Shown piece by piece: positions 25,940 through 49,076 of a DNA stretch of 64,000 nt. The translations under genes were made by a program, and so were the position numbers. The notes under the pieces are model-generated. The model saw only the letters and a program-made list of their open reading frames with translations. It had not been told where the DNA came from and made no database searches. Within the stretch, counting starts at the first letter, position 1. Every line of letters starts with the position of its first letter. This DNA comes from Caldilineae bacterium (GTDB lineage: Bacteria > Chloroflexota > Anaerolineae > JAAEKA01), in assembly GCA_020634555.1 (NCBI GenBank), contig JACKBK010000017.1:573-64572 (forward strand). The letters run 5' to 3'.

Positions 25940-28900
25940 TCAATCCTCGCGACCTGCCAGTCGGCTCTTGCGTCGCCAGCTCGTGAACAGCCTGGAGGCA
26001 AACAGCAGCAACAGCAGTACGGTCCAGGCCAGTAGCCCGTTCAGCGGGTTGCCAGCCGCAGCATCGAAGGATGCCAGCGTCACCGCCGTCGGTGTCTGTA
26101 TGGTCGCGCTGACCGGACCGTGGCGGGTTGTATGGCCGCCTACATCTACATCCTCCAGCCAGTACCAGGCCGTCTGCCCCGGTGTGACGTCCGCGTCGTC
26201 GTACTGGTATGTGAAGCCTTGTGCGCTGCCCGGGGCCTGCGACGGCACGTAGGCCAGCAGGGTCGCGCTGTCCCAGACGCCGTCCAGCGAGCGATACAGG
26301 TTGAAACCGGCATTATCGATCTCGCTCACCGTCTCCCAGGAAACCCGGATCGCGTCCGGGCGTGCCGCCGCACCAAATGCGGCCAGCGTCACCGCCAGCG
26401 GCGTGCAGGTGTCAACACAGACCTGCCCCTGGTTGCCCAGGCCGTCGGTGTACGTGTAGGGTCCCGGCTGGTTCATCTCACGCTGGTAGGTCTGGCCCGG
26501 CTTAAGCATGCCACCATCCCAGCCCAGCGTGGTGCTGATAGGATTGAGCACGCTCAGCGGTTGCAGCACCGGGTTGTCGGTCTGCGTCGCCAGGTCGGCC
26601 GGGCTGAGGCCGTCCACCTCGGCTTGCCACTGCACCGTCGTGCCGGCCGGCACGGTGACGCTGGGCGGTTGCGGCCCGCCGGCGGTCAGCAGGATCTCGG
26701 TCACAGTTTCGATGGCGGGTGGCTCGGTCCAGGGTGTGTAGGGTACATTGACGTGGACGATTTCGTTGACGACGGTGATCACCGGGCTGCGCCATGGCTG
26801 ATAGCCCGGCTTGCCGTCCACCTGCAGATAGTACTGGCCGGGCGGGGTGAAGAAGGCAAAGTAGCCGTCCGCGCTGGTCACCTGCGGGTTGATCTGGTTG
26901 TTGTACAGCCCGGCCGGCCACGGCGTCCAGCCGCCCCACTCCGGCAGGTACTCGTAGAGCGTCACCGTGACGCCGTCGATGGCGTGCGCGGTCGGGTCGT
27001 TGGGATCAAAGCCCTGGGTCACGTCGAACACGTAGCCGTCGGGATCGATCAGGATGCGCCCGTTGGACGAGACGTAGTTGCCGCCGCAGTCGGCCCAGAA
27101 GACGACGTTGTGCGCACCGCCGGTAATGGCGAAGGTGTAGTCGGGAAACGCGCCGGTCGGATCGTAGCGGTGGTTGTCGGCGATGACCCAGATGCTGCTG
27201 GGCTGTCCGGTTGTGCCCGATTCGGGCGGGCAGTTGCAGCCATACAGATGCAACGTCGTGTTCCAGAAGCCATAGACGCCTGGGATGCGCCAGTTCTGGC
27301 TGGCGAACTCACCGCTGTTGTTGCGGAAGCCGAACACCAAATGCTGGCCGGCTTTCGGCCCCACCGTGGGCGTGCCCTCCCACTCTGAGCGCTGCGGGCA
27401 CCAAAAGCTGAGCGGCGGCCGCAGCGTCACGACAGAGCTGGGAGCGCTGCACGCGCCGCCGGGAATGCACGCCTGAACCGTCAGCAGTTCGGTCGCGCTG
27501 CCGCCGTAGGTGTAGGCGATGCTGAAGCGGCCCTCCGCGTCGGCCTGCGTTTGCAGCACCTGCACACCGTCGATGAGCACCAACACGTCCAGATTCGGCT
27601 GGGCCACGCCGCTGACATCGACATCGCCGGGGCACAGCTCGCCGCTGCCCGGCTCGGTCAGCAGCGGCGCCATGACGGGAATCTGCGTGGTCGCTTGCGC
27701 CTCAAGCTGGTAAGGGCCGGCGTGTAGGGTCGCCGTGTTGGTGTACACCCCGCCTCCTACAGGATTGTCATAGCTGGCCGCCATGCTGATCAGCCCAGAC
27801 TGGCCGCGGGCGACCTGTCCCTCCGGCTGCCACGTCAGCGTCTGGCCGGCCTGGCCGAACGTCATGGCCGGCGTGTGGGATTCGCCGGTAAGAGTCATAC
27901 CGGTCGGCAGCTCGTCGTCGATCGTCACCGACAGCGGCGACGCGTTGGCGTCCGGGCTGCCGTAGTAGTACGACAGGAAGTAGTCTTGGCTAAGGCTATG
28001 CTCCAGCACGCCGCTCTGCGGGTCCGCAGTTACGGACCAGCGCGGCGCCAGCGCGCTCTTGTCGAAGTGGAACTGGTTCTCCGGCACACGGCTGAAGGTG
28101 TAGATCATATCGCCGGTCCAGTCGGTGACGAAGATATGGTTGCCGTCCGGCGTCGTGTCAACCCCGGCCCACAGCACGCCGGCGAAGCCGGTGACCATCT
28201 CACTGACCGCGCCGGTGGTCGGGTTGACGCGCAGCAGGCGGGGAGGGGTCGCGTCGACGACCCACAGGTCGCCTGTCAGCGGATCAATGGTAATGCCGCG
28301 CGGATCGGCAATCGGCGTCTGTGTGGTCACAGGCGTCAGGGTAGGCCCGTCATCCAACCGGAAGATTGTGCCATCCGCCGTGCCCAGCGGATCGACGATG
28401 TAGATCGCCGAGGAACTGATGGCGACATCGACCGGGTCGCCCAAAGGGCCAACGCTCTGGGCGTCGGTGTAAATCAGCACTTCGCCTTCAGCTGTGTCCG
28501 GCGACCAGCGCCAGATGTAGTCCCCGCCGCTATTGGCGCCGCGGTCAACCAACAGCGCCTGGCCGGCGCTGAGAATCGGCCCTGTATAGTCGGCCGGCGC
28601 GACTGCCATACCCACAGGGTCATCGTCGCCGCTGCCCAGACCGCTGAGCCATGTTGTGCGCGTCGTGGTGCCGTACGCTGTCCGATATACCCCGCCGCCG
28701 TAGTCTTCTGAGAGAAAGATGTCGCCGTCGGTCGGGTCTACAAACACAGCAGACGGCCGGTCGGCCGCGGTGATCGACGAGATCGTGCCATCGACGTTGA
28801 CGCGGTTCAGGTTGCCGCCGCCGCCACTGGATGGTCGGCGTCCGTAGTAAAGCAGACCATCGATGGGGTTGTAGTGCGCTCCTACCGGATCCGCTGCGGC

Positions 28901-29095
28901 TGTGGCGGTGCTGATCACCCAGCCCGGTTCCACAATGCTTATCTCGTCAGGCGCGCCAGGAGCGGCCAGTGCCTGCGGCGCGTAAGCTGCCAGCAATCCA
29001 GAGAGCAGCGATACACACAGCAAGAGCCGCAGCGGCAAGCTATGAACGATCCTCATTTTCTGAAAAGTGGCGGGTCGTGTGTTGTTTCGTTTCAT
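25940..29095 (-). CDS. Cassette A: large secreted multidomain protein (N-terminal beta-propeller, Ig-like/carboxypeptidase-regulatory-like and cupredoxin-like repeats) ending in the conserved C-terminal anchor module
   Basis: Signal peptide LSGLLAAYAPQALA, propeller-like strands (IYIVDPLG, LWVVDATPPRLLRV, HIFVTDWTGDMIYTF), and the C-terminal 153 aa PLAVTLAAF...GFNLYR...PSQAPGSAQG...YWLEDVDVGG...PTAVTLASF + TM + RRKSR. Confidence 0.8.
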   Translation of the reverse strand: MKRNNTRPATFQKMRIVHSLPLRLLLCVSLLSGLLAAYAPQALAAPGAPDEISIVEPGWVISTATAAADPVGAHYNPIDGLLYYGRRPSSGGGGNLNRVNVDGTISSITAADRPSAVFVDPTDGDIFLSEDYGGGVYRTAYGTTTRTTWLSGLGSGDDDPVGMAVAPADYTGPILSAGQALLVDRGANSGGDYIWRWSPDTAEGEVLIYTDAQSVGPLGDPVDVAISSSAIYIVDPLGTADGTIFRLDDGPTLTPVTTQTPIADPRGITIDPLTGDLWVVDATPPRLLRVNPTTGAVSEMVTGFAGVLWAGVDTTPDGNHIFVTDWTGDMIYTFSRVPENQFHFDKSALAPRWSVTADPQSGVLEHSLSQDYFLSYYYGSPDANASPLSVTIDDELPTGMTLTGESHTPAMTFGQAGQTLTWQPEGQVARGQSGLISMAASYDNPVGGGVYTNTATLHAGPYQLEAQATTQIPVMAPLLTEPGSGELCPGDVDVSGVAQPNLDVLVLIDGVQVLQTQADAEGRFSIAYTYGGSATELLTVQACIPGGACSAPSSVVTLRPPLSFWCPQRSEWEGTPTVGPKAGQHLVFGFRNNSGEFASQNWRIPGVYGFWNTTLHLYGCNCPPESGTTGQPSSIWVIADNHRYDPTGAFPDYTFAITGGAHNVVFWADCGGNYVSSNGRILIDPDGYVFDVTQGFDPNDPTAHAIDGVTVTLYEYLPEWGGWTPWPAGLYNNQINPQVTSADGYFAFFTPPGQYYLQVDGKPGYQPWRSPVITVVNEIVHVNVPYTPWTEPPAIETVTEILLTAGGPQPPSVTVPAGTTVQWQAEVDGLSPADLATQTDNPVLQPLSVLNPISTTLGWDGGMLKPGQTYQREMNQPGPYTYTDGLGNQGQVCVDTCTPLAVTLAAFGAAARPDAIRVSWETVSEIDNAGFNLYRSLDGVWDSATLLAYVPSQAPGSAQGFTYQYDDADVTPGQTAWYWLEDVDVGGHTTRHGPVSATIQTPTAVTLASFDAAAGNPLNGLLAWTVLLLLLFASRLFTSWRRKSRLAGRED

Positions 29096-29160
29096 TGCAA
29101 GTATTCCTCCGTAGTAAGCGACTGCTGCGAAACAGGTTCAGGCAAGAAATTCATCGCTGG

Positions 29161-29198
29161 CTGGGGTAGCAGGCGAGTTTTCCCGTCCGCTACCCCAG
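29161..29198 (-). terminator. Intra-operon hairpin (possible attenuator) between the lipoprotein gene and the 1051-aa gene
   Basis: 10-bp stem ctggggtagc / gctaccccag with an 18-nt loop and no clear U-tract. Confidence 0.35.
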
Positions 29199-29212
29199 CA
29201 GCGTTTGAGGCT

Positions 29213-30169
29213 CTAGCCCTCCACCGCCAGCTCAGCTACCATGCCCATCATGAAGTGGGGCGCGCCATCGGCGTTGGACGAGGGGATGAAGCACAGAAGG
29301 CCATAGTGCTTGCCAGCCTCCAGATTGGCCGTGAAGTAGGCTTCACTGTCGGTGGCGATGGCGCCAATGCCGCCCACAGGCATGCCCGGCGGGGGACCAG
29401 CCGGGGCGTCGGATGCCATGGCAGCCAGGAAATCCTGCACGCTTGCGCCCGGCGCCAGTTCAATCAGCGAGAGTTCGTGCGGCTCGGTGCCTGTGTTGAC
29501 GACCTTGATGGTCTGGTCGCCTGGAGCCACGGTCTGGTCGGAGATCTTGAACTGGTAGTCCACCAGTTCCACGGTCAGGTCAGCATCAGGCGCCTGGGCC
29601 GTCGCGCCGCTGGCGGCGGTGACGCTGAAGGGCTTGATCAGTCCCTTTGCAGCGTGGGGAATCCCGTCAGGGCCGGGGATCACATCGATTACCACGTAGT
29701 CGCCTGCTTCCAGATTCACCATGGTAGAGGCACTGGCGCCCGGCATCACGCCGGTAGGCCCACCCGCGCTGGCCAACCACTCGGGCACGCCGGTTAGCTC
29801 GCCCTGCAGCGCAGCAGCCAGGTCGTTCATGGTCTTGCCCTCCAGGAAGCGGAAAAGCTGGGCCTGGTGTTGGTCCTCGCCCTGGTTGGTCAGTTCGACG
29901 CGCGTCCAGCCAGCCGGTGTGCTGTCCGGCCCGCTGAACCCGGTCTCGGTGGCGGTGAAGCTCACCGCGGGGATGGACGGCGCCTCGGCAGCCGGAGCCG
30001 GGGCCTGGCAGCCGGCAACCGCGAGAGACAGGACGCTGAGTATCAACAGGAAAATGGTCAAGTTGGTCTTTCGGTAGAACACGGTACACTCCTTGGATTG
30101 AAATAGGGTTTCCACTTGGATCACAAACATTTGGGGGTTTCGCAGTGATCTGCCAGACGGCAGTGTCAT
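29213..30169 (-). CDS. Cassette A: lipoprotein with a cupredoxin-like C-terminal Cys...His..Met motif
   Basis: Lipobox LSLAVAGC. The C-terminus LLCFIPSSNADGAPHFMMGMVAEL resembles the C-x-H-x-M ligand loop of blue copper proteins but with a longer Cys-His spacer. The ATG at 30169 overlaps the stop of the upstream small gene (ATGA). Confidence 0.6.
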   Translation of the reverse strand: MTLPSGRSLRNPQMFVIQVETLFQSKECTVFYRKTNLTIFLLILSVLSLAVAGCQAPAPAAEAPSIPAVSFTATETGFSGPDSTPAGWTRVELTNQGEDQHQAQLFRFLEGKTMNDLAAALQGELTGVPEWLASAGGPTGVMPGASASTMVNLEAGDYVVIDVIPGPDGIPHAAKGLIKPFSVTAASGATAQAPDADLTVELVDYQFKISDQTVAPGDQTIKVVNTGTEPHELSLIELAPGASVQDFLAAMASDAPAGPPPGMPVGGIGAIATDSEAYFTANLEAGKHYGLLCFIPSSNADGAPHFMMGMVAELAVEG

Positions 30170-30402
30170 CGCTTGCGTTGTTTTTCGTCGGGTTGTCCTC
30201 CTGTAGCGCTATCGGCGGGCTGTCGGCCCGAAATTTCCAGCGTCTCGTTCGTCATCTCCCCCAAGAAGGCCACCAGATCGCTCAATGCGCCGAAACTGTA
30301 TCGTTCCTTGACGTATGCGTTCTCCAGCGTTGCGTGCCATGGTTTGTCGTTGCCTGTGCGCCAGAGTCGCAGGACGTAGGCAAAGTAGTCTTGGTTCGAC
30401 AT
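30166..30402 (-). CDS. Cassette A: small (78 aa) conserved protein, paralog of 42483..42701
   Basis: YVLRLW...WHATLEN...KERYSFGALSDLVAFL aligns with FVLTCW...WRYSLER...GERLGFADLRELMAYV. In both cases it is the first gene of the operon and has a 4-nt ATGA overlap with the next gene. Confidence 0.6.
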   Translation of the reverse strand: MSNQDYFAYVLRLWRTGNDKPWHATLENAYVKERYSFGALSDLVAFLGEMTNETLEISGRQPADSATGGQPDEKQRKR

Positions 30403-30416
30403 GAGTAGACGATCTC

Positions 30417-30448
30417 AGTATAATTGGGCAACCGGTTGCCAGTTTGCC
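30417..30448 (-). promoter_or_regulatory. Cassette A: candidate activator-dependent promoter (-10 TATACT preceded by GGCAAAC/GGCAACC boxes)
   Basis: Minus strand reads ggcaaacTGgcaaccggttgcccaatTATACT. The proximal box sits 17 nt upstream of the -10, as in cassettes B and C. The boxes are 8 bp apart, not 11. There are only 14 nt from the -10 to the ATG. Confidence 0.4.
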
Positions 30449-30587
30449 GGGATGGCAGCTTCCAGGAGATGGCGGTTTTTGCCGGACGGCGTTCCTGACC
30501 CTCGCAGCTCGCTGCACACCTCGATCAGATGGCTTCAGCATACAGCATGACTCTTCAGGAAGTCTTTATTTTCCCTTCAGGAAAGCC

Positions 30588-33500
30588 ATGACCCGATCAG
30601 GATTGGCGATTTTCCTGCTGGGAGGTGTGCGAATCGAGTTGGACAGTTCGCCCGTCACCGGGCTTGCCTCACGCAAGGCCGAAGCCCTGTTGATCTATCT
30701 GGCCTACGAGCAGCAGGTCAAGAGCCGCGAGTTCCTGGCCGGAATGCTGTGGCCTGACTCCTCCCAGGCGCGGGGATTGGCCAACCTCAGCGTCGTGTTG
30801 ACCAGTCTGCGCAAGCAACTGGACCCTTTCCTCCACACAACGCATCAGACGATCGCCTTCGTTCACGATCGAGATTACACCCTGGATGTGGCTGATTTCG
30901 AGAGGGACATCGGTAACGCCCGGCGTCTGCAACAGCAACAGGGGCAGATAACCCGTGCAGCGGCGGCCTTGCTGATCAGCGCCACCGAGGCCTACCGGGG
31001 AGATTTTCTGGCAGGTTTCTCGATTCGACAAGCGCCCGATTTCGAGGCGTGGGCCTTGCTTGAACAGGAGCGATTGCGGCGGCTGGCACTGGAGGCCATG
31101 CACGACCTGGGCAATTTCTACATGGGGCGCGGCCAATTCACCACCGGCATCGAACAGGTTAACCGGTTGCTTGCATTGGACCCGCTGCGAGAGGATGGCC
31201 ACCGGTTGCTGATGCGCCTGCTGGCGCTGGACGGCCAGCGCGCGTCAGCCCTGGCGCAGTTCGACCGCTGTTTCGAGGTGCTGCGCGATGAACTGGGCGT
31301 CGAGCCAGACGACGAAACAGCCGCGTTGTATGAGGCAATTGCCAAGGACGAATTCCCGTCCGGCCAAGGCGTCCGGGAAGCAGCGCCTGCCATAGCTGCA
31401 GGCCAGGTTCCCGTCGCGCCCTCACACAACCTGCCCCACATCCCCACCCCGTTCGTGGGCCGCGAGCTAGAACAATCCCAGATCGCTGCCCGGCTGGACA
31501 GCCTGGACTGCCGTCTGTTGACGTTGACCGGCCCCGGCGGAATCGGCAAGACGCGGCTGGCCCTGCAAGCCGCGGGCCAGCGCCTGGCCACCTATCGCGA
31601 TGGCGTCTGGTTTGTGGGGCTGGCCGCACTGGACGACGCAGCCGGCATCCCATCGGCCATCGCCTCAGCCATGGGCTTCGCTTTTTCGGGGCCGGCCGAT
31701 CCCGCCAACCAGTTGGTGGATTTCCTGAGAAACAAGGAAACGCTGCTGCTGCTGGACAACTTCGAGCAACTGATCGGCGACCAAAGCCTGGATCTGGTCG
31801 CGCGCCTGCTGGCCGAGGCGCCGGGGACCCAGATGCTTGTCACCTCGCGCGAGCGGCTGAACCTGCAAGCCGAGTGGATCGTCGATGTGAGTGGACTGCC
31901 CTATCCGGCCGATTCCGCCGATCCCCGGGCCGGCCACTATGCCGCCGTGCGCCTTCTGGTACAGCACGCCCAACGCCTGCGAACAGACTTCAAGCTGGAT
32001 GCCACCAACCAGGCAGCCGTGGTGCGCATCTGCCAGATGGTGGATGGCATGCCTCTGGCCCTGGAACTGGCCGCGTCCTGGATCAGGGCCCTGGCGCCGC
32101 AGGAGATCGTCGCCGAGTTGGCGCGCGGCCTGGAAGTGCTCACTACCACAGCCCGGGATCTGCCGGCCCGCCACCGCAGCATCCGGGCAGTGTTTGACTA
32201 CTCGTGGCAATCCCTCAGCCAGGAGCAGCAGGTTGCCCTGATGCAGCTTTCGGTGTTCCGGGGCGGATTCACGCGAGAAACCGCAGCCGCGGTGGCAGGC
32301 GTAACGGCTGGCGTGCTGCTGGCATTGGTGGACAAATCGCTGGTGCGCCCCTTGGCGTCAGGCCGCTTCCTTAAACATGTGCTGACCAACCAGTACGCGG
32401 AGTCGCGCTTGGCCGAGCACCCCCAGCTTGAACGGCAGGTACATGCCGACCATGCCCGCTATTTCGCCGAGAGGCTGCAACGGCAGGAGCACGGCTTCTA
32501 CGGTTCCGATGACCGGAACGCCCTGGGTTGGATGGTGGCTGAGGAGGAGAACATCCGGCGCGCCTGGCGCTGGGCCGTGGCCGAACAAGACCTCACGCTC
32601 GTTGGCCACTTCCTGGAAAGCTTCCTTTATTTCTTCGACATTCAAGGACGCTACCGGGAAGGCGCCGAACTGACGCAGGAGGCGCTGGCAGCGCTGGCGC
32701 CCATTGACGGCGAAAGCGAACCCCGGTTTCGCCGGGTGCTGGGGCGGCTGACGGCTCTGGACGGCGGATTCCGCTTCCGCCTGGGCGATTTCGAGGGTAC
32801 CCGGCTCCAGGCTGAGCGCGCCGTTGCGCTGTTGGAGCCTTTCAGGCCGTTGCTGGACCTGGGCCACGCCTTTTTGTACCGGGGCATCGGCTTCTATGGC
32901 CTGGGCGATCTCGACAGATGCCTGGCGGATTCGCTGAGAGCCAGGGATGCCTATCGTGAGGCAGGCCATGCCTGGGGTGAGGGAGCGGCGCTGGACAACG
33001 CCGGCACCATCCTCTCCCTGCAAGGCCACCATGATGAGGGCCGCCGTCTGCACCTTGAGGCGCTGGAGATCGCCCAGAAGCTGGGCAGCCGCTACCTCAT
33101 GGCCGCTCTCCTGGGTGATCTGGCCAACATCGAAACGGCGGCTGGAGATCATGACAAGGCGCTGGACTATGCTGAACGCTCCCTGGCCGTGATTGAGGAG
33201 ATGGAACGGCCCTACATGACCGCCACTATCTCGCGCGCCCTGGGCGACATCGCCCTGCAAAGCGGTGACTACAGCGCGGCAGAAGAACACCTGGCCAAAG
33301 CCCTGGCTATCGCCCGCAACACCGGCAACCGCCTGGATCTGGCTGATGCCTTAGTACAGCTCGGCGCTGTCCACATGGCCCAGAAGCGCTATGAACTGGC
33401 AACCGAGGCCTACCAGGAGGCAGTTGCCACGGCAGGGGACATCCAGGCGCGCCTGATGGTCGCCGACGCGCTGGCAGGCTTGGGCGAGGTTGCAATACAC

Positions 33501-33704: not shown

Positions 33705-33725
33705 AACGGAGAGGGCATCCTTTGA

Positions 33726-33760: not shown

Positions 33761-33784
33761 GAGTCTGTGCGCGCGAGATGAAAG

Positions 33785-36346: not shown

Positions 36347-36381
36347 AGCATACACCCCTACTCTTTGACAACTCTTTGACT
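36347..36381 (-). promoter_or_regulatory. Cassette B: SARP-type promoter (two 11-bp-spaced direct repeats, then 8 nt, then a -10)
   Basis: Minus strand reads aGTCAAAGAGttGTCAAAGAGtaggggtgTATGCT: 9-nt core, 2 nt, 9-nt core, 8 nt, -10 hexamer. It faces the FG-GAP gene. Confidence 0.55.
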
Positions 36382-39825: not shown

Positions 39826-39870
39826 AGGTGAGAGTCACCTCCTAACTGCGCCAGGCAGCAGCAAACCACT

Positions 39871-39974: not shown

Positions 39975-39980
39975 AACCAC

Positions 39981-40670
39981 TTAACTGCGTTTCTGCCGGT
40001 ATGTCACAACCGGTAGGGCAGCCAGCGCCGCGAACAGCACCGCCGGCAACAACCACACCGGCGCAACCGGAGTCTCACCTGCGCTGGCCGTCAGTACAGC
40101 CATGGTAACTGCGGTCGGACCTGCCAGCGCAGCCGTGACCGGGCCGTGCACCGTTCCCTGACCGCCAAGGTCTACATCCTCCAGCCAGTAATAGTAGGTC
40201 GGACCCGGCTCCACCTCCGCGTCCCGGTAGTTGTACTCAAAACCCTGCGCGCTGCCTGGGGCTTGAGAGGGCACGAAGGCCAACAGGCTTGCACCGGCCC
40301 AGTCATCATTGGTGCCGCGGTAGAGGTTGAAGCCGGTGCAGTCGATCTCACTCACCGTCTGCCACTCAACCAGAATGCTTGCGCCATCTTGCCGGGCGGT
40401 GAATCCGGCCAGTGTCACGGCCAGAGGCGCTTGCAGGCCGGGCTGCCAAAACCCGCCGCGTACAGTGTACCCGCCGCCTGAGACCGTCCCCGCTGCCGAA
40501 CCGACGCTGCCCCGCAACAGATACGCGCCTGCGCTGCTGGCTCCGCCACCCTGTGTGGTTGACCTGGTGACTGTCCACCCGCCGCCACTCTGAGCCATGG
40601 CCGTCGTCGCTGGCAAAGCCAGCAGCAGAACGGCAACAGCGGCGACGAAAGTAACGCATCGTTTGATCAT
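39981..40670 (-). CDS. Cassette C: small secreted Gly-rich protein consisting mostly of the conserved C-terminal anchor module
   Basis: Signal peptide ALPATTAMA, SGGGYTVRGGFWQPG motif, then 148 aa PLAVTLAGF...GFNLYR...PSQAPGSAQG...YWLEDVDLGG...PTAVTMAVL + TM + RQKRS. Confidence 0.75.
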   Translation of the reverse strand: MIKRCVTFVAAVAVLLLALPATTAMAQSGGGWTVTRSTTQGGGASSAGAYLLRGSVGSAAGTVSGGGYTVRGGFWQPGLQAPLAVTLAGFTARQDGASILVEWQTVSEIDCTGFNLYRGTNDDWAGASLLAFVPSQAPGSAQGFEYNYRDAEVEPGPTYYYWLEDVDLGGQGTVHGPVTAALAGPTAVTMAVLTASAGETPVAPVWLLPAVLFAALAALPVVTYRQKRS

Positions 40671-40701
40671 GGTTGTTCCTCGCTTTCTCTTTGTCAGTCT
40701 G

Positions 40702-42486
40702 TCAGAAGACCACGATCATGATGTCCTCGGCGTCCTCCGGGAAGTCCGAGGTGTCGGTGATGGTGCAGTAGAGCTGCTGCGCGCCATCCGGCCAGCAGTT
40801 CACATAGCCCAGCCTGCGCAGCCCTGTTGAGGACGGCAATTGATCGGTCACTGTCGCTATCCAATAGCGCCCGGTGAGCGGGAAACCGAAGTTGACCGCG
40901 CAGCTGTCATCATCGGAGTCGGTAAGGAACGAGATCGTCGTGCCGTAGACAGACTGGCCGTGGATCAGCCCGGAGTCGCTGCCGTCGCATCTGCCAAAAG
41001 CAGCCGCCTTGGCCAGGCCTAACTGGCCAACTGGCTGCCAAAGCGCGCCCGAGTCGTCCACGTTGAACACAGGGCTGCCGGATTCATCCTGTATCTGGAA
41101 GTCGGAGTCCTCGTCGCCCCCACCGATGTCCAGCATGACCGTCACGTCGTCATCGCTGGCGAAGACCAGATCGCCGCTGACGTAGTTGGGATCGGTGCTG
41201 ATGCGGCCATCGTCATCCGTGCCGCTGTTGCCGCCAAGCACGAGGTCAGGCACTAGGTCCCCCTGGCTGCGGGCATAGAGGCCGCCGCCTTGAGGCACCG
41301 AGGTGTTGGCCCCGTCGTTGACGAACTCGCCACCGTAGTCCTCAGAGTCGGTGGTCCGCGCATAGACACCGGTGTTGCCGGCATCGGCCACATGAATGCC
41401 GTCCTGGCCGGCCGTCTCCACGTGAATTCCGTGCGCTCCCGGATTGACGACGCGCACACCGTCGGCAACAGTGTTGCCCACCTGCACGCCGTCGTCCAAC
41501 GCCGATGCAACCTGCACCCCATCGCCGGCAGGCTGGTCGATGAACACCCCGTTGCCGTCGGCCGTGCTCACCGACAGACCGTCGCCCCCGGCATAGTTGA
41601 CGGACAGGCCATCCTCGGTAGCCGAGTTAACGTGGACTCCGTCGGTCCCGGCCACGTCCACACGCACGCCGGCCTGGTTGGCGCTTTCGACCAACACGCC
41701 GTTGAACACCCCTGCGGACACCTTGAGACCGTCGCTGGTCTTGACGCTTCCGATCACTTCCAGGCGTTCGCTGGGAGCAGGCGTCCCCATGCCAACCCTG
41801 CCGTCCTGCTTGACCCACAGTTGGTCGGTGATGCCGAAGCGCAGCACCCAGGCGTTGGTCGTTGGCTGATAATAGTGATACGCCTTGAGCTGCCCCTCGT
41901 TGGCGTAGCCGTAGAACGCCCAAGCGCCGGGATCGGTGGTATTGACGTACATGCCACCCCGCCCATCGCCGGGCGCGTCCACACCGAAGGCTTCCCTGCT
42001 TTCGATGGGCGAGTCGCGCCCAACACCTACGAAGGGCAGACTCTCATCAGTGTAGAGTCCAGGCAGCGCCAGTGCGACCGGCGACGGCGTCATGGACTGG
42101 CGCGGGCTCAGCACAGTGCCGTTCACCGTGATTTCCAGATAACGGGCGCCGCCGCCGAACGCGCCGCTGCCGAAGTCCAGCTCGGCCGTAAACAACCCTT
42201 CGTCCACCAGAACACCCGTCAATGCCGCTGCACCGCCGATCTGGTTGCCTGCGCCGCTGGCTGTGGGATCATCCCACAAGGTAAAGGTGAAATCGACCGC
42301 ACCTGTGATGGGACCGGCCGTGTCTTCCAGATATCCCTGGTAGGTGAAGGCTGTACCTATCGTGCTTCGGACCGCGTTTGGACCTGCTTCGGGCAGGCGA
42401 GGTCCTTCCTCCTGAGCCAGCGCAATACCTGCCGGGGTGAGGAGCGCGAGCAGCGTTGCCAGCAGAGCAATCATCGTTCGTTTCAT
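40702..42486 (-). CDS. Cassette C: secreted protein with a tail-fibre-like N-terminal domain and a central xxDG(V/L)xV beta-helix-type repeat region
   Basis: Signal peptide LLTPAGIALA, FTYQGYLEDTAGPITGAVDFTFTLWDD...GLFTAELDFGSGAFGGGARYLEITV, and ~12 repeats such as GTDGVHVNSATEDGLSVNYAGGDGLSVSTADGNGVFIDQPAGDGVQV. It has no C-terminal anchor module. Confidence 0.75.
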   Translation of the reverse strand: MKRTMIALLATLLALLTPAGIALAQEEGPRLPEAGPNAVRSTIGTAFTYQGYLEDTAGPITGAVDFTFTLWDDPTASGAGNQIGGAAALTGVLVDEGLFTAELDFGSGAFGGGARYLEITVNGTVLSPRQSMTPSPVALALPGLYTDESLPFVGVGRDSPIESREAFGVDAPGDGRGGMYVNTTDPGAWAFYGYANEGQLKAYHYYQPTTNAWVLRFGITDQLWVKQDGRVGMGTPAPSERLEVIGSVKTSDGLKVSAGVFNGVLVESANQAGVRVDVAGTDGVHVNSATEDGLSVNYAGGDGLSVSTADGNGVFIDQPAGDGVQVASALDDGVQVGNTVADGVRVVNPGAHGIHVETAGQDGIHVADAGNTGVYARTTDSEDYGGEFVNDGANTSVPQGGGLYARSQGDLVPDLVLGGNSGTDDDGRISTDPNYVSGDLVFASDDDVTVMLDIGGGDEDSDFQIQDESGSPVFNVDDSGALWQPVGQLGLAKAAAFGRCDGSDSGLIHGQSVYGTTISFLTDSDDDSCAVNFGFPLTGRYWIATVTDQLPSSTGLRRLGYVNCWPDGAQQLYCTITDTSDFPEDAEDIMIVVF

Positions 42487-42701
42487 CGGTTGTCTCCCTT
42501 CATTTCGTTTTCAGAGTCCTCAAGGCTGCGCCGAACGTACGCCATCAGCTCGCGCAGGTCCGCGAAACCCAGGCGCTCGCCCTGGCTACCGATACGTTCC
42601 AGCGAATAGCGCCAGGATGTTTGCAGCGACCTCGGTATCGTTGACTCGGACCAGCAGGTCAAAACGAACGTTTGGCGCCGGCTCTTGCGCTGAGATGACA
42701 T
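42483..42701 (-). CDS. Cassette C: small (72 aa) conserved protein, paralog of 30166..30402
   Basis: RBS AGGAAG before the ATG at 42701. MSSQRKSRRQTFVLTCWSE...WRYSLERIGSQGERLGFADLRELMAYV. ATGA overlap with the 594-aa gene. Confidence 0.6.
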   Translation of the reverse strand: MSSQRKSRRQTFVLTCWSESTIPRSLQTSWRYSLERIGSQGERLGFADLRELMAYVRRSLEDSENEMKGDNR

Positions 42702-42899
42702 TGTCTTCCTTTCATCCAGGCTATCAGCGGGCCGTTGCCCGCAAACACAACAACTTCTTCCCATGGGAAAACACCACGATCTGCATCTCACCGGACCCTA
42801 CATCCTCCGGTTTAATGCACGCTATCTGGATGTTCCTGACTGCGATCATGGTTTCCTCCTTTGTTAGTTGCGCCGTAACAACTCAGCCGACAGAGTGGT

Positions 42900-42964
42900 G
42901 TCATTCCCGCGAAGGCGGGAATCCTGGGCTGCGAGGAGTGGATTCCCGCCTTCGCGGGAATGAC
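42900..42964. repeat. Inverted pair of REP-type hairpins
   Basis: tcattcccgcgaaggcgggaatcc ... ggattcccgccttcgcgggaatga. This is the same hairpin type as unit A of the 8.5-9.3 kb array. Confidence 0.75.
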
Positions 42965-43035
42965 AGGTGAGCAGTTACATTGCGCCTCGATCAAGTCCGA
43001 CGGAGATGTGTGCTGGCCTCATTGGGCCAGCGCAT

Positions 43036-43064
43036 TTGCTCCATCCTCTTGTCAAGTGTATAGT
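43036..43064 (+). promoter_or_regulatory. Candidate sigma70 promoter for regulator C
   Basis: TTGCTC, 17 bp, TATAGT. It overlaps the opposite-strand -10 of the cassette C promoter. Confidence 0.4.
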
Positions 43065-43095
43065 TTATGTGTCCCTCGTTTGCATATCGTTTGCA
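43062..43095 (-). promoter_or_regulatory. Cassette C: SARP-type promoter (two 11-bp-spaced direct repeats, then 8 nt, then a -10)
   Basis: Minus strand reads TGCAAACGAtaTGCAAACGAgggacacaTAAACT, the same 9-2-9-8-hexamer geometry as cassette B. Confidence 0.5.
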
Positions 43096-43130
43096 GGTGC
43101 CAGATATCCGCAACCGCTATCGGGAGAACA

Positions 43131-46100
43131 GTGAACCCTCGGCAGACTCAACAACCGTCAACCATCCGATTGCTGGGACCGCTGCGGCTCGAGAACCAGG
43201 AAGAGGTAATCACCAACTTCCGGTCTCGCCGCGTTGCCGCGCTGATAGCCTATGCCGTTGTCGAAGCGCGTCCCATCCCACGCGCCGGGTTGGTGGAACT
43301 GCTCTGGCCGGACAAGCCAGAAAAACAGGGACGAGCCAACCTGCGGTGGGCGCTCAACCAGGCAAGCAAACTGTTGCCGGGATGTTGGGAGATCGACCGC
43401 CAGGTTGTGGGGTTCGATCCTGGCCAAAACTGTTATGTCGATCTCCACGCGTTGGAGGCGGCGTTGACCCAGGACGACACCGACATACTGGCACACGAAG
43501 TCGCTGCCGTACAGGGCGATTTCCTGGCGGGCTTCTACCTCGACAATTCGCCCGAATTCGAGAACTGGATGGTCATGGCACGCGAGGCGTGGCGGCGGCT
43601 GATCGAGAATGCGCTGACGCGGCTGATCGACCACTACGCGCACACCAGGCAGTACAGCGACGCACTGCGGTTTGCCCGCCAGCGCCTTGCCATGGATCCC
43701 TGGGTAGAAGAGTCCCATCGGACGGTGATGCAGCTGCTGGTACGGCTGGGCGAGATGGACGCAGCGTTGGCCCAGTTCGAGAGTTGCCAGCGCATTCTGG
43801 CTGATGAATTGGGGGTTGGACCGACGGCTGAAACAGTGGCCCTGGCGCAACGCCTGCGCCAGTTGGCGGCCGGCCCGCGCCATAACCTGCCTGCCCAGCC
43901 TACGCGCTTCGTAGGCCGCGAAGCTGAGCTCGATCTGTTAGCGCAGTGGTTGGCCGATCCCTCTTGCCGAATGATAACCCTGGTGGGGCCAGGCGGTGTG
44001 GGAAAAACGCGCGTGGCGTTGGCAGCGGCGGAACAACAGGCGTCGAACTTCCTTGACGGCGTTACCTTCCTGGCGCTGGCACGGGTCAACCCCGCCAGTG
44101 TGGACGATGCGGGGATTCTTCTCATCACTGCTTTGGTCGATGCGCTGGGGTTGTCGTCTTCCCGGCAACAGTCGCCGCGCGAACATCTGCTCGCTCACCT
44201 GACGAACCAGGAGCGGCTTTTGGTGTTGGACAATTTTGAGCTGCTGTTGGGCGGCGTTGACGTGCTGGTGGAGATTGTACAGCGCGCCCCCGGCGTGAAG
44301 CTGCTGGTAACTTCACAGGAAAGACTCAACGTGCGTTGGGAGCGCATGCTGGCCATCGACGGGCTTCCCTGTCCGGCTTCCGGGGCCGATCCACACTGGC
44401 AGGAGTGCAGCGCAGTGCAGTTGTTTGTCCAGGCCGCGCGCCGGGCGAATCCCGCCATTGCCATCAGCGCCGGTGATCGGGAGTCGGTGGTCCGCATTTG
44501 CCGGCTGGTGGAGGGGTTGCCGCTGGGATTGGAGCTGGCTGCTTCATGGGTGCGCGTCCAAAGCTGCGCTGCGATTGCCGATGAAATCCAGCACAGCTTC
44601 GATGTCCTCAAGGCGCATCAACGCGACCGTCCTGCCCGCCAGCAAAGCATGCGTTCGGTCTTCGACCATTCCTGGCAACTTCTCTCACCGGCCGAACAGG
44701 CGACATTGAGCCAGATAGCGATCTTACAGGGAGAGTTCACCTTCCCGGCCGCATATGAGGTAGCCGGTGCGACCTGGGAGGTGCTATCGACGCTGGTCGA
44801 CAAATCACTTTTACGTCAGAGTTCGGTAATCGAAGCCGACAGGTCACAAGAGACAGCACACCGCACCGGTCGTGCCGAGATAGCTTTTGCGCTGCACGCG
44901 CTGGTACGCCAATACGCCTTCGAGCGCCTGAAAAGCGACCCGGCGCAGGAGCTGGCCGCTCGTCAGCGCCATGCCCGTTATTACGCCGCACTGCTGGCGG
45001 AGAACGGCAGCCACCTGCGCAGCGGCCCGCAGCAGACCATCGCCATGGCCCTGATGGAGCGGGAGATCTCAAACATCCGGGCTGCCTGGGAGTGGGCCAT
45101 CGCACAACCGAAAGTGGAGCTGATCACCCAACTGCTGCCAGAGCTTGCCTTCTACTTCGACCTCCGCAATCCGGCCGACGGCGCCCAGTTGATGAACCGT
45201 TCAGCAAAGGTGTTGTTGGACGCCAGTTCACGAGAACCGGCCGTGGAACTGGCCAGAGCACGCATCCTGCTCGATCAGGTTCGATTTGCTCTGGCAACCG
45301 GCAAACGCCGCGATGAGGCCGTGCATGAGATGCAGGCATACCTGGCCTTGTTTGAACAGAAGGAGGCGCACCACGACATTGCCCGAACGCTGCACTATCT
45401 GGGCAATGCTTACTACCCCGATCAACTGGAGCGGGCGACTTGCTATTGGCAGCGCAGCCTCGAACTCTACCGGCAGACAGGCGACCGCTGGGCAATGGCC
45501 CGGATACTGATGAATCTAGGTGTAACCGCCGGCACCTTCAACCAGGCGCGCACGTTTTACCGGGAAAGCATGCGACTGTGCCGTGCGCTGGATGACCAGG
45601 TGCTGGAAGGACATCTGATGTTCCACCTCGCGAACATCGAAGAACAGTTGGGCAACTACGCCGCGGCTGAAGATCTGGCAGCGAGATCTGTCGAACAGCT
45701 ACGAGCGGTCGGCGACCCCTACAATTTATTCATCGGTCTGATCAACCTGGTTGCTGCGCTGCAAGGCCAGGGAAAGCTCGACCAGGCGCGCCGCTCTCTC
45801 CACGAGGCCGAGGTGATCACTCAAATGTCGGGAACACACTGGAACAGGATGTTGCTGGCGTTGTATTGGGGCCGGCAGACGCTGGCGGAGGGTGACGTCG
45901 AGAGGGCCGAACGGCTGTTTCAAGGCTCGCTGGCAGACGCCGAGTCGACGAAATATGTCGGGCACATTCAGCAATGCATGATCAGCCTTGGCCGGATCTG
46001 CCTGGATCAAGGGCGTGACATCGAAGCCCGCGACTGGTTTGAGCGAAGCCTGCAAGCCAACGATCAGCAAGACCGCAAGAGCGGCACCTGCCGGCTGGAA

Positions 46101-46268
46101 GCATTGGTACATCTCGGGGAAATCGAACTGCGGGCGGGTGAGGCAGCCGGGTCAAAAGCCCACTTCCAGGCCGCGTACGACCAGGCTGTGGCAATCGGCG
46201 CAGAAGTTGTATGGCGCCGCCTGATGCACCGGCAGAACCATGCTCACCAGCCCCAGGGCACACACTGA
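43131..46268 (+). CDS. Cassette C regulator: AfsR-like SARP, NB-ARC/STAND ATPase and TPR
   Basis: GTG start after GGGAGA. IRLLGPLRLENQEEVITNFRSRRVAALIAYAVV, PEFENWMVMAREAWRRL, EESHRTVMQLLVRLGEMDAALAQFESCQRILADELGVGP, GPGGVGKTRVAL, LLVLDNFELL, TPR-like C-terminus. Confidence 0.8.
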   Translation: MNPRQTQQPSTIRLLGPLRLENQEEVITNFRSRRVAALIAYAVVEARPIPRAGLVELLWPDKPEKQGRANLRWALNQASKLLPGCWEIDRQVVGFDPGQNCYVDLHALEAALTQDDTDILAHEVAAVQGDFLAGFYLDNSPEFENWMVMAREAWRRLIENALTRLIDHYAHTRQYSDALRFARQRLAMDPWVEESHRTVMQLLVRLGEMDAALAQFESCQRILADELGVGPTAETVALAQRLRQLAAGPRHNLPAQPTRFVGREAELDLLAQWLADPSCRMITLVGPGGVGKTRVALAAAEQQASNFLDGVTFLALARVNPASVDDAGILLITALVDALGLSSSRQQSPREHLLAHLTNQERLLVLDNFELLLGGVDVLVEIVQRAPGVKLLVTSQERLNVRWERMLAIDGLPCPASGADPHWQECSAVQLFVQAARRANPAIAISAGDRESVVRICRLVEGLPLGLELAASWVRVQSCAAIADEIQHSFDVLKAHQRDRPARQQSMRSVFDHSWQLLSPAEQATLSQIAILQGEFTFPAAYEVAGATWEVLSTLVDKSLLRQSSVIEADRSQETAHRTGRAEIAFALHALVRQYAFERLKSDPAQELAARQRHARYYAALLAENGSHLRSGPQQTIAMALMEREISNIRAAWEWAIAQPKVELITQLLPELAFYFDLRNPADGAQLMNRSAKVLLDASSREPAVELARARILLDQVRFALATGKRRDEAVHEMQAYLALFEQKEAHHDIARTLHYLGNAYYPDQLERATCYWQRSLELYRQTGDRWAMARILMNLGVTAGTFNQARTFYRESMRLCRALDDQVLEGHLMFHLANIEEQLGNYAAAEDLAARSVEQLRAVGDPYNLFIGLINLVAALQGQGKLDQARRSLHEAEVITQMSGTHWNRMLLALYWGRQTLAEGDVERAERLFQGSLADAESTKYVGHIQQCMISLGRICLDQGRDIEARDWFERSLQANDQQDRKSGTCRLEALVHLGEIELRAGEAAGSKAHFQAAYDQAVAIGAEVVWRRLMHRQNHAHQPQGTH

Positions 46269-49054: not shown

Positions 49055-49076
49055 AGAAGTCGGATTAGTGATAAGT

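What the first reader, a model, noticed from the sequence alone, without database searches (positions are those of the whole stretch)
25940..46268. Three tandem paralogous cassettes, each pairing an AfsR-like STAND regulator with a divergent operon for C-terminally anchored surface proteins
Seen in sequence: the same plan repeats three times within 20 kb.
- Cassette A: 1051-aa protein, lipoprotein and 78-aa protein on the minus strand, divergent from regulator 30588-33704.
- Cassette B: 7-blade FG-GAP protein on the minus strand, divergent from regulator 36496-39825.
- Cassette C: 229-aa protein, 594-aa protein and 72-aa protein on the minus strand, divergent from regulator 43131-46268.
All three regulators have an OmpR-type wHTH plus BTAD, an intact P-loop (GPGG(I/V)GKTR) and LL(L/V)LDNFE(Q/H/L)L, then TPR repeats. 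Established knowledge: this is the AfsR/SARP-STAND architecture, in which the ATPase/TPR part gates the DNA-binding part. Inference: these are three signal-gated switches, each controlling its own surface protein set. I do not know of this regulator-cargo pairing being described.
Basis: partly seen in the sequence, partly recalled or inferred. Interest (0 to 1): 0.85.

Follow-up and report, generated by a model that had tools for sequence, protein, structure and literature searches.

The report
AfsR-like switches driving surface-protein operons
Three related AfsR-type (SARP–ATPase–TPR) regulators in a Chloroflexota genome each sit back-to-back with an operon for secreted or membrane-anchored proteins and have their own predicted binding site there, and the partner this regulator clade keeps across genomes is an unannotated ~70-residue protein, not the surface proteins.

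Summary
Three full-length paralogous regulators (32-35% identity; BTAD + NB-ARC + TPR; collinear with AfsR, profile E 7e-57) each lie divergent from an operon of secreted or anchored proteins. One protein per operon carries a shared C-terminal module, here shown to be an FN3-like domain followed by a TM helix and a basic tail.

New evidence supports local control. Each intergenic region has a perfect 9-10 nt direct repeat at 11 or 22 nt spacing. These are three of only four such repeats in the 64 kb window. Read on the cargo strand, each is followed 7-10 nt later by a TAnnnT hexamer, which is SARP-promoter geometry. Box sequence co-varies with the regulator's predicted recognition helix across nine loci.

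The proposed regulator-module pairing is not general. None of 80 metagenomic regulator loci has the module, and only about 6 of 79 module loci have a divergent regulator.

The conserved partner is a 65-80 aa protein family (β3α fold, no Pfam, about 9,500 clusters). It is the first gene of cassettes A and C and is absent from B. It was directly divergent from such regulators in 7 of 11 sampled contexts and in 11 of the 20 closest regulator loci.

I rate this a new variant of a known kind, of moderate to high interest.

The parts
25940..29095 (-). A1: 1051-aa secreted protein with C-terminal FN3-like module + TM + basic tail (cassette A cargo)
   Evidence: ORF. Weak CarboxypepD_reg and DUF6923 hits. 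Module 62-66% identical to those of B1 and C1. Orthologue 80% identical in L001, 68-71% in L002-L004.
29213..30169 (-). A2: 318-aa predicted lipoprotein (lipobox LAVAGC), weak cupredoxin/EfeO-like similarity
   Evidence: Its start overlaps the stop of A3 by 4 nt. Absent from the orthologous cassettes L001-L004.
30166..30402 (-). A3: 78-aa member of the conserved small-protein family (β3α), first gene of operon A
   Evidence: HMM E 2e-24. AF2 core pLDDT >90, strands 9-14, 23-28 and 34-37, helix 40-57. No Pfam, NCBIfam or PADLOC hit.
30396..30424 (+). σ70-like promoter TCGACA-17-TATAAT (11/12), candidate promoter of RegA
30537..30583 (-). Box A: TTCCTGAAG (30583-30575) and TTCCTGAAG (30561-30553), 22 nt apart, then 10 nt, then TATGCT (30542-30537)
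   Evidence: It is the only perfect repeat of 9 nt or more at 22-nt spacing in the 64 kb window and is unique in the window.
30588..33704 (+). RegA: AfsR-like regulator (wHTH-BTAD-NB-ARC-TPR), 1038 aa
33785..36238 (-). B1: seven-repeat FG-GAP β-propeller protein with C-terminal module + TM + basic tail; the only cargo gene of cassette B
   Evidence: FG-GAP_2, 7 stretches, E 4.5e-95. Module. Start at 36238 with RBS GGAGGT.
36347..36380 (-). Box B: GTCAAAGAGT-T-GTCAAAGAGT (36380-36360), 11 nt apart, then 7 nt, then TATGCT (36352-36347)
   Evidence: The same GTCAAAG repeat followed by TATGCT occurs in orthologous locus L001 at 1942-1975, and the recognition helix there is identical.
36496..39825 (+). 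RegB: AfsR-like regulator, 1109 aa
   Evidence: Orthologue 70% identical in L001.
39981..40670 (-). C1: 229-aa protein: signal peptide, Gly-rich linker, FN3-like module, TM, basic tail
   Evidence: AF2 gives a β-sandwich at residues 86-181 with pLDDT >93. FN3-like PDB matches at E 4e-6.
40702..42486 (-). C2: 594-aa secreted protein, no family match
   Evidence: Its start overlaps the stop of C3 by 4 nt.
42483..42701 (-). C3: 72-aa member of the conserved small-protein family
   Evidence: HMM E 9e-31. RBS AAGGAAG.
42724..42849 (-). 41-aa ORF with strong RBS (AGGAGG), uncertain
   Evidence: Read from the sequence. No Pfam hit.
42899..42965 (.). 26-nt perfect inverted repeat (GC-rich palindromic element) inside the predicted leader of operon C
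   Evidence: The same palindrome family occurs in the 110-bp tandem array at 8535-9326.
43062..43095 (-). Box C: TGCAAACGA-TA-TGCAAACGA (43095-43076), 11 nt apart, then 8 nt, then TAAACT (43067-43062)
43131..46268 (+). RegC: AfsR-like regulator, 1045 aa (GTG start)

Best explanation
The region holds three paralogous AfsR-like 'large SARP' transcription activators: an OmpR-type DNA-binding domain, BTAD, an NB-ARC/STAND ATPase and a TPR sensor.

Proposed mechanism (inferred): each regulator binds as a side-by-side dimer to its own pair of direct repeats, one or two helical turns apart. The repeats replace the -35 element of a divergent promoter, lie 7-10 nt upstream of a TAnnnT -10 hexamer, and switch on the neighbouring operon. 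Gating of the DNA-binding part by the ATPase/TPR part is inferred from the STAND family, and the signal is unknown.

Outputs in this genome are secreted, lipid-anchored or C-terminally anchored proteins. The anchor is an FN3-like stalk, a TM helix and a basic tail.

Two of the three operons (A and C) begin with a 65-80-aa β3α protein. Across genomes, this protein is what stays next to this regulator clade, not the surface proteins. I infer, at lower confidence, that it is a regulatory partner or first target, functionally analogous to afsS for AfsR. The downstream genes would then be exchangeable outputs.
For: Architecture:
- BTAD, NB-ARC and TPR are present in all three regulators.
- The family profile matches AfsR 8k60 at E 7e-57 over positions 6-580.

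Cis elements:
- Each intergenic region has a perfect 9-10 nt repeat at 11 or 22 nt spacing.
- The whole 64 kb window has only four such repeats, and three lie in these ~870 bp of intergenic DNA.
- Each box is unique in the window.
- Read on the cargo strand, each box is followed by TATGCT, TATGCT or TAAACT at 10, 7 and 8 nt.
- This fits the published SARP rule: repeats 11 or 22 bp apart, with the 3' repeat 8 bp from the -10 element (PMC10936776; PMC11301090).

Same geometry elsewhere:
- L001a, L001b, L002 (two boxes), L003, L004, L160, L162 and L080 show the same geometry, always pointing at the small ORF or the cargo.
- L071, L081, L095 and L108 have 11/22-nt-spaced repeats in the same position, but I did not read a -10 element there.

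Protein-DNA covariation:
- RegB and its 70%-identical orthologue share the helix ANLSWALNHV and the box GTCAAAG.
- Four regulators with helix NNLRQ(A/V)L(T/S)NLRK (L001a, L003, L004, L160) all have (C/T)AAA(T/C)GAT boxes.
- RegA, RegC and the L162 regulator have different helices and different boxes.

Regulator promoter: RegA has its own near-consensus σ70-type promoter, whereas I saw no -35-like hexamer upstream of the cargo-side -10.

Small protein:
- It lies directly divergent from the regulator in 11 of the 20 closest regulator loci that have upstream sequence.
- From the small-protein side, 7 of 11 contexts are directly divergent from a regulator and 3 more lie in the divergent gene string.
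- All four hits in the ~1.1 Mb of module-selected loci are next to a regulator.

Conserved adjacency: orthologous cassettes occur in at least five other genomes.
Against: - No expression, binding or TSS data exist. The -10 assignments and the strand of each box are read by eye.
- In cassettes A and C the boxes lie only 5 and 36 nt from the regulator's start codon, so an autoregulatory role cannot be excluded.
- Spacing from box to -10 varies (7, 8 and 10 nt).
- A 26-nt inverted repeat and about 200 nt separate box C from the first ORF.
- Cassette B, L001b and L004 lack the small protein, so it is not required for the arrangement.
- The small protein has no structural or sequence relative of known function (best PDB fold match E 0.67), so its role is a guess.
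- The Asp of the AfsR 'HD' switch motif is not kept (V, S and A in the three paralogues). Gating may therefore differ from AfsR.
Confidence: 0.68

Rival explanations
1. The direct repeats are operators for the regulator genes themselves (autoregulation). The regulators act mainly on distant targets, as global AfsR does, and adjacency to surface-protein operons is incidental.
For: Boxes A and C lie 5 and 36 nt upstream of the regulator start codons. On the plus strand, box C is followed by AGATAT and an RBS. In the AfsR-like census of Actinomycetota, 58% of regulators are 'ectopic', that is, not next to a gene cluster.
Against: In 8 other loci the same geometry points at the small ORF or cargo, on the strand opposite to the regulator. 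L002 and L004 carry a box directly upstream of the cargo gene, 300-400 nt from the regulator. RegA has a separate near-consensus σ70 promoter. Box A would place a plus-strand TSS inside the RegA coding sequence. The divergent adjacency is kept across at least five genomes, even where the cargo passenger domain has been exchanged.
Confidence: 0.15
2. The small ORF encodes a signalling or precursor peptide sensed by the TPR domain, so the cassette is an RRNPP-like quorum-sensing or RiPP-type unit.
For: A TPR-containing regulator is paired with an adjacent small ORF in many loci. A radical SAM gene lies about 7 kb downstream in L162. RegA's TPR region resembles a RiPP TPR protein (HaaT).
Against: The small protein has no signal peptide or leader-like N-terminus. 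It has a confidently predicted globular β3α core (pLDDT >90). Conservation lies across the folded core, not in a short C-terminal peptide. Tandem two-domain versions exist (P0232, P0235). No modifying enzyme or exporter is consistently adjacent.
Confidence: 0.07
3. The STAND proteins are anti-phage sensors (Avs/bNACHT-like) and the neighbouring genes are effectors.
For: STAND NTPases with TPR sensors are common in defence systems. Three tandem paralogues resemble a defence island.
Against: PADLOC gives only generic TPR hits and none to Avs or other STAND defence models. The N-terminus is a DNA-binding SARP domain collinear with AfsR. The neighbours are secreted structural-type proteins, not nucleases or proteases. 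The flanks are housekeeping genes such as Fpg, SOD and ABC permeases.
Confidence: 0.03

Closest known systems
AfsR of Streptomyces coelicolor (large SARP: SARP-NOD-TPR) and its target afsS
   Same: - Same domain order, collinear over about 600 residues (profile E 7e-57).
- Intact Walker A and B motifs.
- The invariant His of the MHD-like motif is kept.
- Predicted operators are two 11-bp direct repeats replacing the -35 element, a few bp upstream of the -10 element.
- In cassettes A and C and in most related loci, the gene directly driven encodes a small protein of 60-80 aa next to the regulator gene, as afsS is for afsR.
   Different: - The host is Chloroflexota (Anaerolineae/Caldilineales), not Actinomycetota.
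- No biosynthetic gene cluster is nearby; the outputs are secreted or anchored proteins.
- The NCBIfam AfsR equivalog scores 108 bits against a cut-off of 1430.
- The Asp of the F/Y-HD switch is replaced by V, S or A.
- The small protein is divergent rather than downstream. It is a predicted β3α globular domain. Homology to AfsS was not tested.
Small and medium cluster-situated SARPs (ActII-ORF4, RedD, DnrI) and EmbR
   Same: OmpR-type DBD plus BTAD, binding direct repeats at 11 or 22 bp spacing. Local, pathway-specific control of adjacent genes. RegA aligns to EmbR 2fez.
   Different: Those proteins lack the NB-ARC and TPR parts (EmbR has an FHA domain) and control antibiotic or cell-wall arabinan genes in actinomycetes.
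MalT and other STAND transcription activators
   Same: A signal-gated NTPase with a repeat sensor controls a DNA-binding domain. TPR_MalT similarity is weak.
   Different: MalT has a C-terminal LuxR HTH and binds asymmetric MalT boxes. Here the DBD is an N-terminal SARP domain.
C-terminal sorting or anchoring signals (LPXTG/sortase, PEP-CTERM, MYXO-CTERM, PGF-CTERM)
   Same: A conserved short motif (P-T-A-V-T), a spacer, a hydrophobic helix and a basic tail at the extreme C-terminus of secreted proteins, present in many copies per genome.
   Different: No NCBIfam or Pfam sorting-domain model matches. The conserved unit is an FN3-like domain of about 100 aa plus the tail. No sortase or exosortase gene is in the window.

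Membership tests
Large SARP / AfsR-like regulator | N-terminal OmpR-type winged-helix DNA-binding domain | tested here: met
   The family profile aligns from position 6 to AfsR residues 25-614 (E 7e-57) and to EmbR 10-264. Pfam Trans_reg_C is sub-threshold for RegA (17.9 of 26.2 bits) and absent for RegB and RegC.
Large SARP / AfsR-like regulator | BTAD domain following the DBD | tested here: met
   PF03704 at E 1.8e-23, 5.7e-24 and 1.2e-14, all above the cut-off.
Large SARP / AfsR-like regulator | Central NB-ARC/STAND NTPase with Walker A and B | tested here: met
   NB-ARC is above its cut-off in RegA and RegB; RegC scores 20 bits against 23.5, with AAA_16 and AAA_22 hits. GPGG(I/V)GKTR and LL(L/V)LDNFE are present.
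Large SARP / AfsR-like regulator | C-terminal TPR array | tested here: met
   TPR_12 at E 6e-24, 2e-24 and 2.5e-14.
Large SARP / AfsR-like regulator | F/Y-HD activation-switch motif in the NOD (bioRxiv 10.64898/2026.09.02.748808) | tested here: inconclusive
   The alignment shows [FY]-x-[LMK]-H with an invariant His (H597 of RegA). The next residue is V, S or A in the window paralogues and P or E in relatives. Equivalence to AfsR's HD is inferred from the position after LVDKSL, not from a structure.
Large SARP / AfsR-like regulator | Target promoter with direct repeats 11 or 22 bp apart, 3' repeat about 8 bp from the -10 element, poor -35 | tested here: met
   at sequence level only. The rule is quoted from PMC10936776.
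Large SARP / AfsR-like regulator | Activates transcription; ATPase activity | not testable with these tools
   Needs in vitro transcription and ATPase assays.
Large SARP / AfsR-like regulator | Actinomycete host and control of secondary-metabolite genes (the family's name-giving context) | tested here: not met
   The closest relatives are Anaerolineae/Caldilineales MAGs. The neighbours are secreted proteins, with no PKS, NRPS or other BGC genes within 64 kb.
AfsR equivalog (NCBIfam NF053617) | Score at or above the curated cut-off | tested here: not met
   107.7 bits against a cut-off of 1430. These are relatives, not orthologues, of AfsR.
Known C-terminal sorting domains (LPXTG, PEP-CTERM, MYXO-CTERM and others) | Match to a curated sorting-domain model | tested here: not met
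   No NCBIfam or Pfam hit on the module of A1, B1 or C1. The tripartite motif/TM/basic-tail layout is present.
Anti-phage STAND (Avs and similar) | Match to PADLOC STAND defence models; effector domain | tested here: not met
   Only generic TPR hits.
RRNPP-type TPR regulator plus signalling peptide | Small ORF with an export signal that yields a short mature peptide | tested here: not met
   No hydrophobic N-terminus. The predicted core is a folded β3α domain with pLDDT >90.

The most novel reading that the evidence does not exclude
A non-actinobacterial clade of AfsR-like STAND activators forms an obligate two-gene unit with a previously undescribed β3α mini-protein. The family has about 9,500 clusters at 50% identity and no Pfam model. 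The mini-protein would be the regulator's first target and would feed back on it, or on RNA polymerase. This would make a self-contained switch onto which exchangeable output genes are grafted. In filamentous Chloroflexota the outputs include large cell-surface proteins whose passenger domains are swapped (FG-GAP versus Kelch) while regulator, operator and anchor stay the same.
Probability: 0.3. Interest if true: 0.75.

Novelty: new variant of a known kind. Interest (0 to 1): 0.6.

Why it matters
SARPs, and AfsR in particular, are studied almost only as antibiotic regulators of actinomycetes. The latest phylogenomic census I found covers only Actinomycetota. Searches of the paper library for SARP or AfsR together with Chloroflexota terms found nothing relevant.

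This locus gives three things:
- AfsR-type switches in Chloroflexota, wired to cell-surface proteins rather than biosynthetic clusters.
- Concrete, testable operator predictions, with natural helix-operator covariation that could help decode SARP DNA recognition.
- A large unannotated small-protein family tied to these regulators, which echoes the AfsR-afsS pair.

It also defines a widespread, uncurated FN3-TM anchor module of Anaerolineae and Caldilineae surface proteins. This matters for filamentous bacteria that are important in activated sludge.

Tried and rejected
- General regulator-module co-occurrence: rejected. None of 80 regulator loci has the module. Only L001 (two cassettes), L002, L003, L004 and L071 of 79 module loci have a divergent regulator.
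- Small protein as an AP2/integrase-like DNA-binding fold, my guess from the β3α pattern: no support. The best PDB Foldseek match has E 0.67 and no AP2-type hit is listed.
- Known sorting signals for the module: no NCBIfam or Pfam match.
- Defence-system reading: PADLOC is negative.
- Structured RNA in the intergenic regions: Rfam at gathering threshold finds only one tRNA, at 49123-49207.
- Extra targets of the boxes inside the window: none, allowing up to 3 mismatches.
- P0231, a 3802-aa protein with 33 'repeats' of the small domain: inspection shows a low-complexity tandem translation, not a real relative.
- The scripting machine was lost. Planned statistics on repeat spacing across all loci, and an HMM scan of loci L160-L171 for the module, were replaced by the repeat finder and pairwise BLASTP.

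Full report
**1. Observation**

The three regulators are:
- RegA, 30588-33704
- RegB, 36496-39825
- RegC, 43131-46268

They align with each other over their full length at 32-35% identity, E 1e-129 to 1e-145. Each has BTAD, NB-ARC/AAA_16 and TPR_12. The quoted Walker A and B strings are present.

Pfam Trans_reg_C is not significant. RegA scores 17.9 bits against a cut-off of 26.2, and RegB and RegC give nothing. Two other results support the N-terminal domain:
- RegA aligns in one collinear stretch (residues 6-611) with AfsR residues 25-616.
- A seven-sequence family profile hits AfsR 8k60 at E 7e-57 over positions 6-580, and EmbR over 5-246.

The AfsR-like domain order is therefore real.

A1 (1051 aa), B1 (seven FG-GAP_2 repeats) and C1 (229 aa) share a C-terminal module of about 120 aa at 51-66% identity. 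A tblastn scan shows that the 64 kb window holds exactly three regulators and three modules, all within this 20 kb.

Composition (about 63% GC) and the flanking genes indicate an ordinary chromosomal region. The flanks encode SOD, Fpg, ABC permeases, an ECF sigma factor, DUF3048 and an M50 protease. The closest relatives are Caldilineales/Anaerolineae MAGs.

**2. The shared C-terminal module**

It has no Pfam or NCBIfam model.

An AlphaFold2 model of C1 built on 85 homologues shows:
- a seven-strand β-sandwich at residues 86-181, pLDDT >93;
- then the conserved P-T-A-V-T stretch, a hydrophobic helix and a basic tail.

Foldseek places the sandwich among FN3-like domains (PelI 3b4n at E 4e-6, C. 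thermocellum Fn3-like 3mpc).

The module is common. There are more than 1,238 database hits, all labelled 'hypothetical' and nearly all from Anaerolineae or Caldilineae. There are many copies per genome, for example at least ten loci in one HK-STAS-CHLO-17 MAG.

It is a generic FN3-TM anchor of surface proteins in this lineage. Whether P-T-A-V-T is a processing site is unknown.

**3. Is the regulator-module pairing conserved?**

*From the module side.* 79 genome loci with 10 kb flanks hold 114 module ORFs. Only these have a directly divergent regulator homologue:
- L001 (two cassettes)
- L002, L003 and L004
- L071

L008, L016 and L060 have a strong regulator hit elsewhere in the flank, and L014 has weak fragments.

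*From the regulator side.* 80 metagenomic loci encode relatives of the regulators. None carries the module.

It holds for orthologous cassettes:
- L001 is syntenic with the window. Its A1 orthologue is 80% identical, its RegB orthologue 70% and its RegA counterpart 45%, in the same order.
- L002-L004 carry A1-like cargo at 68-71% identity.

One detail is telling. The RegB orthologue in L001 sits next to a Kelch β-propeller with the same module, where the window has an FG-GAP β-propeller. The passenger domain was exchanged while regulator, operator and anchor were kept.

**4. Cis elements**

Each of the three divergent intergenic regions holds a perfect direct repeat:

| Cassette | Repeat (plus strand) | Positions | Spacing |
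|---|---|---|---|
| A | CTTCAGGAA | 30553 and 30575 | 22 nt |
| B | ACTCTTTGAC | 36360 and 36371 | 11 nt |
| C | TCGTTTGCA | 43076 and 43087 | 11 nt |

A scan of the whole window for perfect repeats of 9 nt or more found three at spacing 11 and one at spacing 22. Three of these four are the boxes above, and they lie in about 870 bp, or 1.4% of the window. Each box is unique in the window even with three mismatches allowed.

Read on the cargo strand, the geometry is uniform:

| Cassette | Box (cargo strand) | Gap | Hexamer |
|---|---|---|---|
| A | TTCCTGAAG-N13-TTCCTGAAG | 10 nt | TATGCT |
| B | GTCAAAGAGT-T-GTCAAAGAGT | 7 nt | TATGCT |
| C | TGCAAACGA-TA-TGCAAACGA | 8 nt | TAAACT |

This is the published SARP promoter rule. 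[quoted passage not shown]

The same arrangement recurs in related loci:
- L001b: GTCAAAG twice, then TATGCT.
- L001a, L002 (one box before the small ORF and a second before the cargo gene), L003 and L004: (C/T)AAA(T/C)GAT twice, then TAnnnT.
- L160: CAAATGAT/TAAATGAT, then TAGGAT.
- L162: TGAAAGG twice, then TACATT.
- L080: ATCATTT twice on the opposite strand.
- L071, L081, L095 and L108 have 11/22-nt-spaced repeats in the same position, but I did not read a -10 element there.

In every locus where I read the hexamer, the box points at the small ORF or the cargo gene, not at the regulator.

**5. Protein-DNA covariation**

I aligned the DNA-binding domains of nine regulators and compared them with their boxes.

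| Regulators | Predicted recognition helix | Box |
|---|---|---|
| RegB, L001b | ANLSWALNHV | GTCAAAG |
| L001a, L003, L004, L160 | NNLRQ(A/V)L(T/S)NLRK | (C/T)AAA(T/C)GAT |
| RegA | ANLSVVLTSLRK | TTCCTGAAG |
| RegC | ANLRWALNQASK | TGCAAACGA |
| L162 | ADISVLLSRL | TGAAAGG |

Regulators with the same helix have the same box, and regulators with different helices have different boxes. This is the best available computational evidence that the repeats are the regulators' own operators.

RegA also has a separate σ70-type promoter, TCGACA-17-TATAAT, matching 11 of 12 positions at 30396-30424. I saw no -35-like hexamer on the cargo side.

**6.

The 78-aa (A3) and 72-aa (C3) proteins are homologues. 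The consensus is Y-x-S-[FY]-[IL]-L-R-L-W ... W-R-x-S-L-E ... T-G-E-R-x-G-F-x-x-L-x-x-L-x-x-F-L.

An HMM built from six Anaerolineae examples found the family in these places:
- Between regulator and cargo in L001a, L002, L003 and L071.
- Directly upstream and divergent from the regulator in 11 metagenomic loci (L080, 081, 087, 090, 093, 095, 098, 102, 105, 106, 108).

Those 11 are among the 20 closest BTAD-bearing regulator relatives that have upstream sequence. None of about 16 more distant relatives has it.

Starting from the small protein, I sampled 11 genomic contexts:
- 7 are directly divergent from a BTAD-AAA/NB-ARC-TPR gene (L160, L162, L163, L165, L166, L169, L170).
- 3 lie further down the gene string that diverges from such a regulator (L164, L167, L171).
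- 1, the weakest member, does not (L168).

The genes that follow vary:
- cytochrome c plus cupredoxin;
- ECF sigma factor;
- β-lactamase-like;
- S8 protease;
- very large CarboxypepD_reg, BNR or Sortilin-like proteins.

Of the three large cargo proteins I compared pairwise, only the L163 one carries the module.

Other properties of the family:
- It has 9,499 representatives at 50% clustering with E ≤ 1e-3, and 3,711 with E ≤ 1e-10.
- It has no Pfam domain and no name other than 'hypothetical'.
- AlphaFold2 predicts three β-strands and a helix, with pLDDT >90 over residues 10-50.
- No PDB fold match is significant.
- A3/A2 and C3/C2 overlap by 4 nt, which suggests translational coupling.
- Cassette B, L001b and L004 lack the small gene. 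L004 still keeps the conserved leader sequence found upstream of the small ORF in L001-L003.

**7. Mechanism**

*Shown at sequence level:*
- AfsR-like architecture.
- Private SARP-type boxes with correct geometry on the cargo strand.
- Helix-box covariation.
- Adjacency conserved in relatives.
- Secreted or anchored cargo.

*Inferred:*
- Each regulator dimerises on its box and recruits RNA polymerase to a -35-less promoter, as in the AfsR cryo-EM complexes.
- The NB-ARC/TPR part gates this in response to an unknown signal.
- The small protein is a co-regulated partner or first target, analogous to afsS.

*A difference from AfsR:* the His of the MHD-like motif is invariant, but the following Asp of the 'HD' switch described for actinomycete AfsR-like proteins is V, S or A here.

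**8. Rivals**

- *Autoregulation only.* Boxes A and C are close to the regulator start codons. However, orientation in eight other loci, the second cargo-proximal box in L002 and L004, and RegA's own σ70 promoter all argue against it.
- *RRNPP or RiPP-like peptide signalling.* The small protein has a folded core, no export signal and no consistent modifying enzyme nearby.
- *Anti-phage STAND.* PADLOC is negative and the N-terminus is a SARP DNA-binding domain.

**9. Comparison and novelty**

These proteins are relatives of AfsR, not orthologues. The NCBIfam AfsR equivalog scores 108 bits against a cut-off of 1430.

Searches of the paper library for SARP or AfsR together with Chloroflexota terms found nothing relevant. 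The most recent census of AfsR-like regulators is restricted to Actinomycetota.

I classify the finding as a new variant of a known kind: AfsR-type switches outside actinomycetes, wired to surface-protein operons and coupled to an undescribed small-protein family.

**10. Limits**

- There are no expression or binding data.
- The -10 elements and TSS positions are predictions.
- The small-protein association rests on about 30 loci, not a full census.
- The scripting machine failed, which prevented wider statistics.

Noticed in passing
window 8535-9326: A 110-bp tandem repeat, 7.2 copies at 94% identity. Each unit has two GC-rich palindromes (ATGCCCGCGAAGGCGGGCAT and ACTCCCGCGGAGGCGGGAGT). It overlaps a mechanical 231-aa ORF with no Pfam hit. 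There is no Rfam match.
   Followed up: partly
window 42899-42965 and 61478-61497: Copies of the same palindrome family outside the array. One is a 26-nt perfect inverted pair inside the predicted 5' leader of operon C, and one is a single copy near 61.5 kb. This could be a REP/MITE-like insertion or an attenuator.
   Followed up: partly
window 42724-42849 (-): A 41-aa ORF (MIAVRNIQIACIKPEDVGSGEMQIVVFSHGKKLLCLRATAR) with a strong AGGAGG RBS, lying between box C and C3. It has no family hit, and it is unclear whether it is real.
   Followed up: partly
L001 2039-3940 versus window 33785-36238: The orthologous regulator (70% identical) and the same operator and anchor module are kept, but the cargo passenger domain is a Kelch β-propeller in L001 and an FG-GAP β-propeller in the window. 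This indicates passenger-domain swapping.
   Followed up: yes
L002 1269-1290 and 1658-1679: Two copies of the CAAA(C/T)GAT direct-repeat box lie in one cassette, one before the small ORF and one before the cargo gene. In L004 the small ORF is lost but its leader and a cargo-proximal box remain.
   Followed up: partly
L167 8001-9089 and L171 6001-7035: In two metagenomic loci the small protein gene is immediately followed by an ECF sigma factor gene. The window also has an ECF sigma gene (48464-49246, minus strand) about 2 kb beyond RegC.
   Followed up: no
window 49123-49207 (+): A tRNA gene overlaps the 5' end of the mechanical ECF-sigma ORF on the opposite strand, so the real start of the sigma gene is probably downstream of 49123.
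   Followed up: no
P0232, P0235 (database proteins): Tandem two-domain versions of the small β3α protein exist (140-146 aa). P0231 (3802 aa, '33 repeats') is a low-complexity artefact.
   Followed up: partly
window 50704-53385 (+): An 893-aa protein with four cyclic-nucleotide-binding domains and no other Pfam domain.
   Followed up: no
window 3467-8221 (-): A 1584-aa protein combining Peptidase_M28 (two stretches), PA and Peptidase_MA_2 domains. The next operon has an OppC-like permease fused to an M28 peptidase domain (10666-13161).
   Followed up: no
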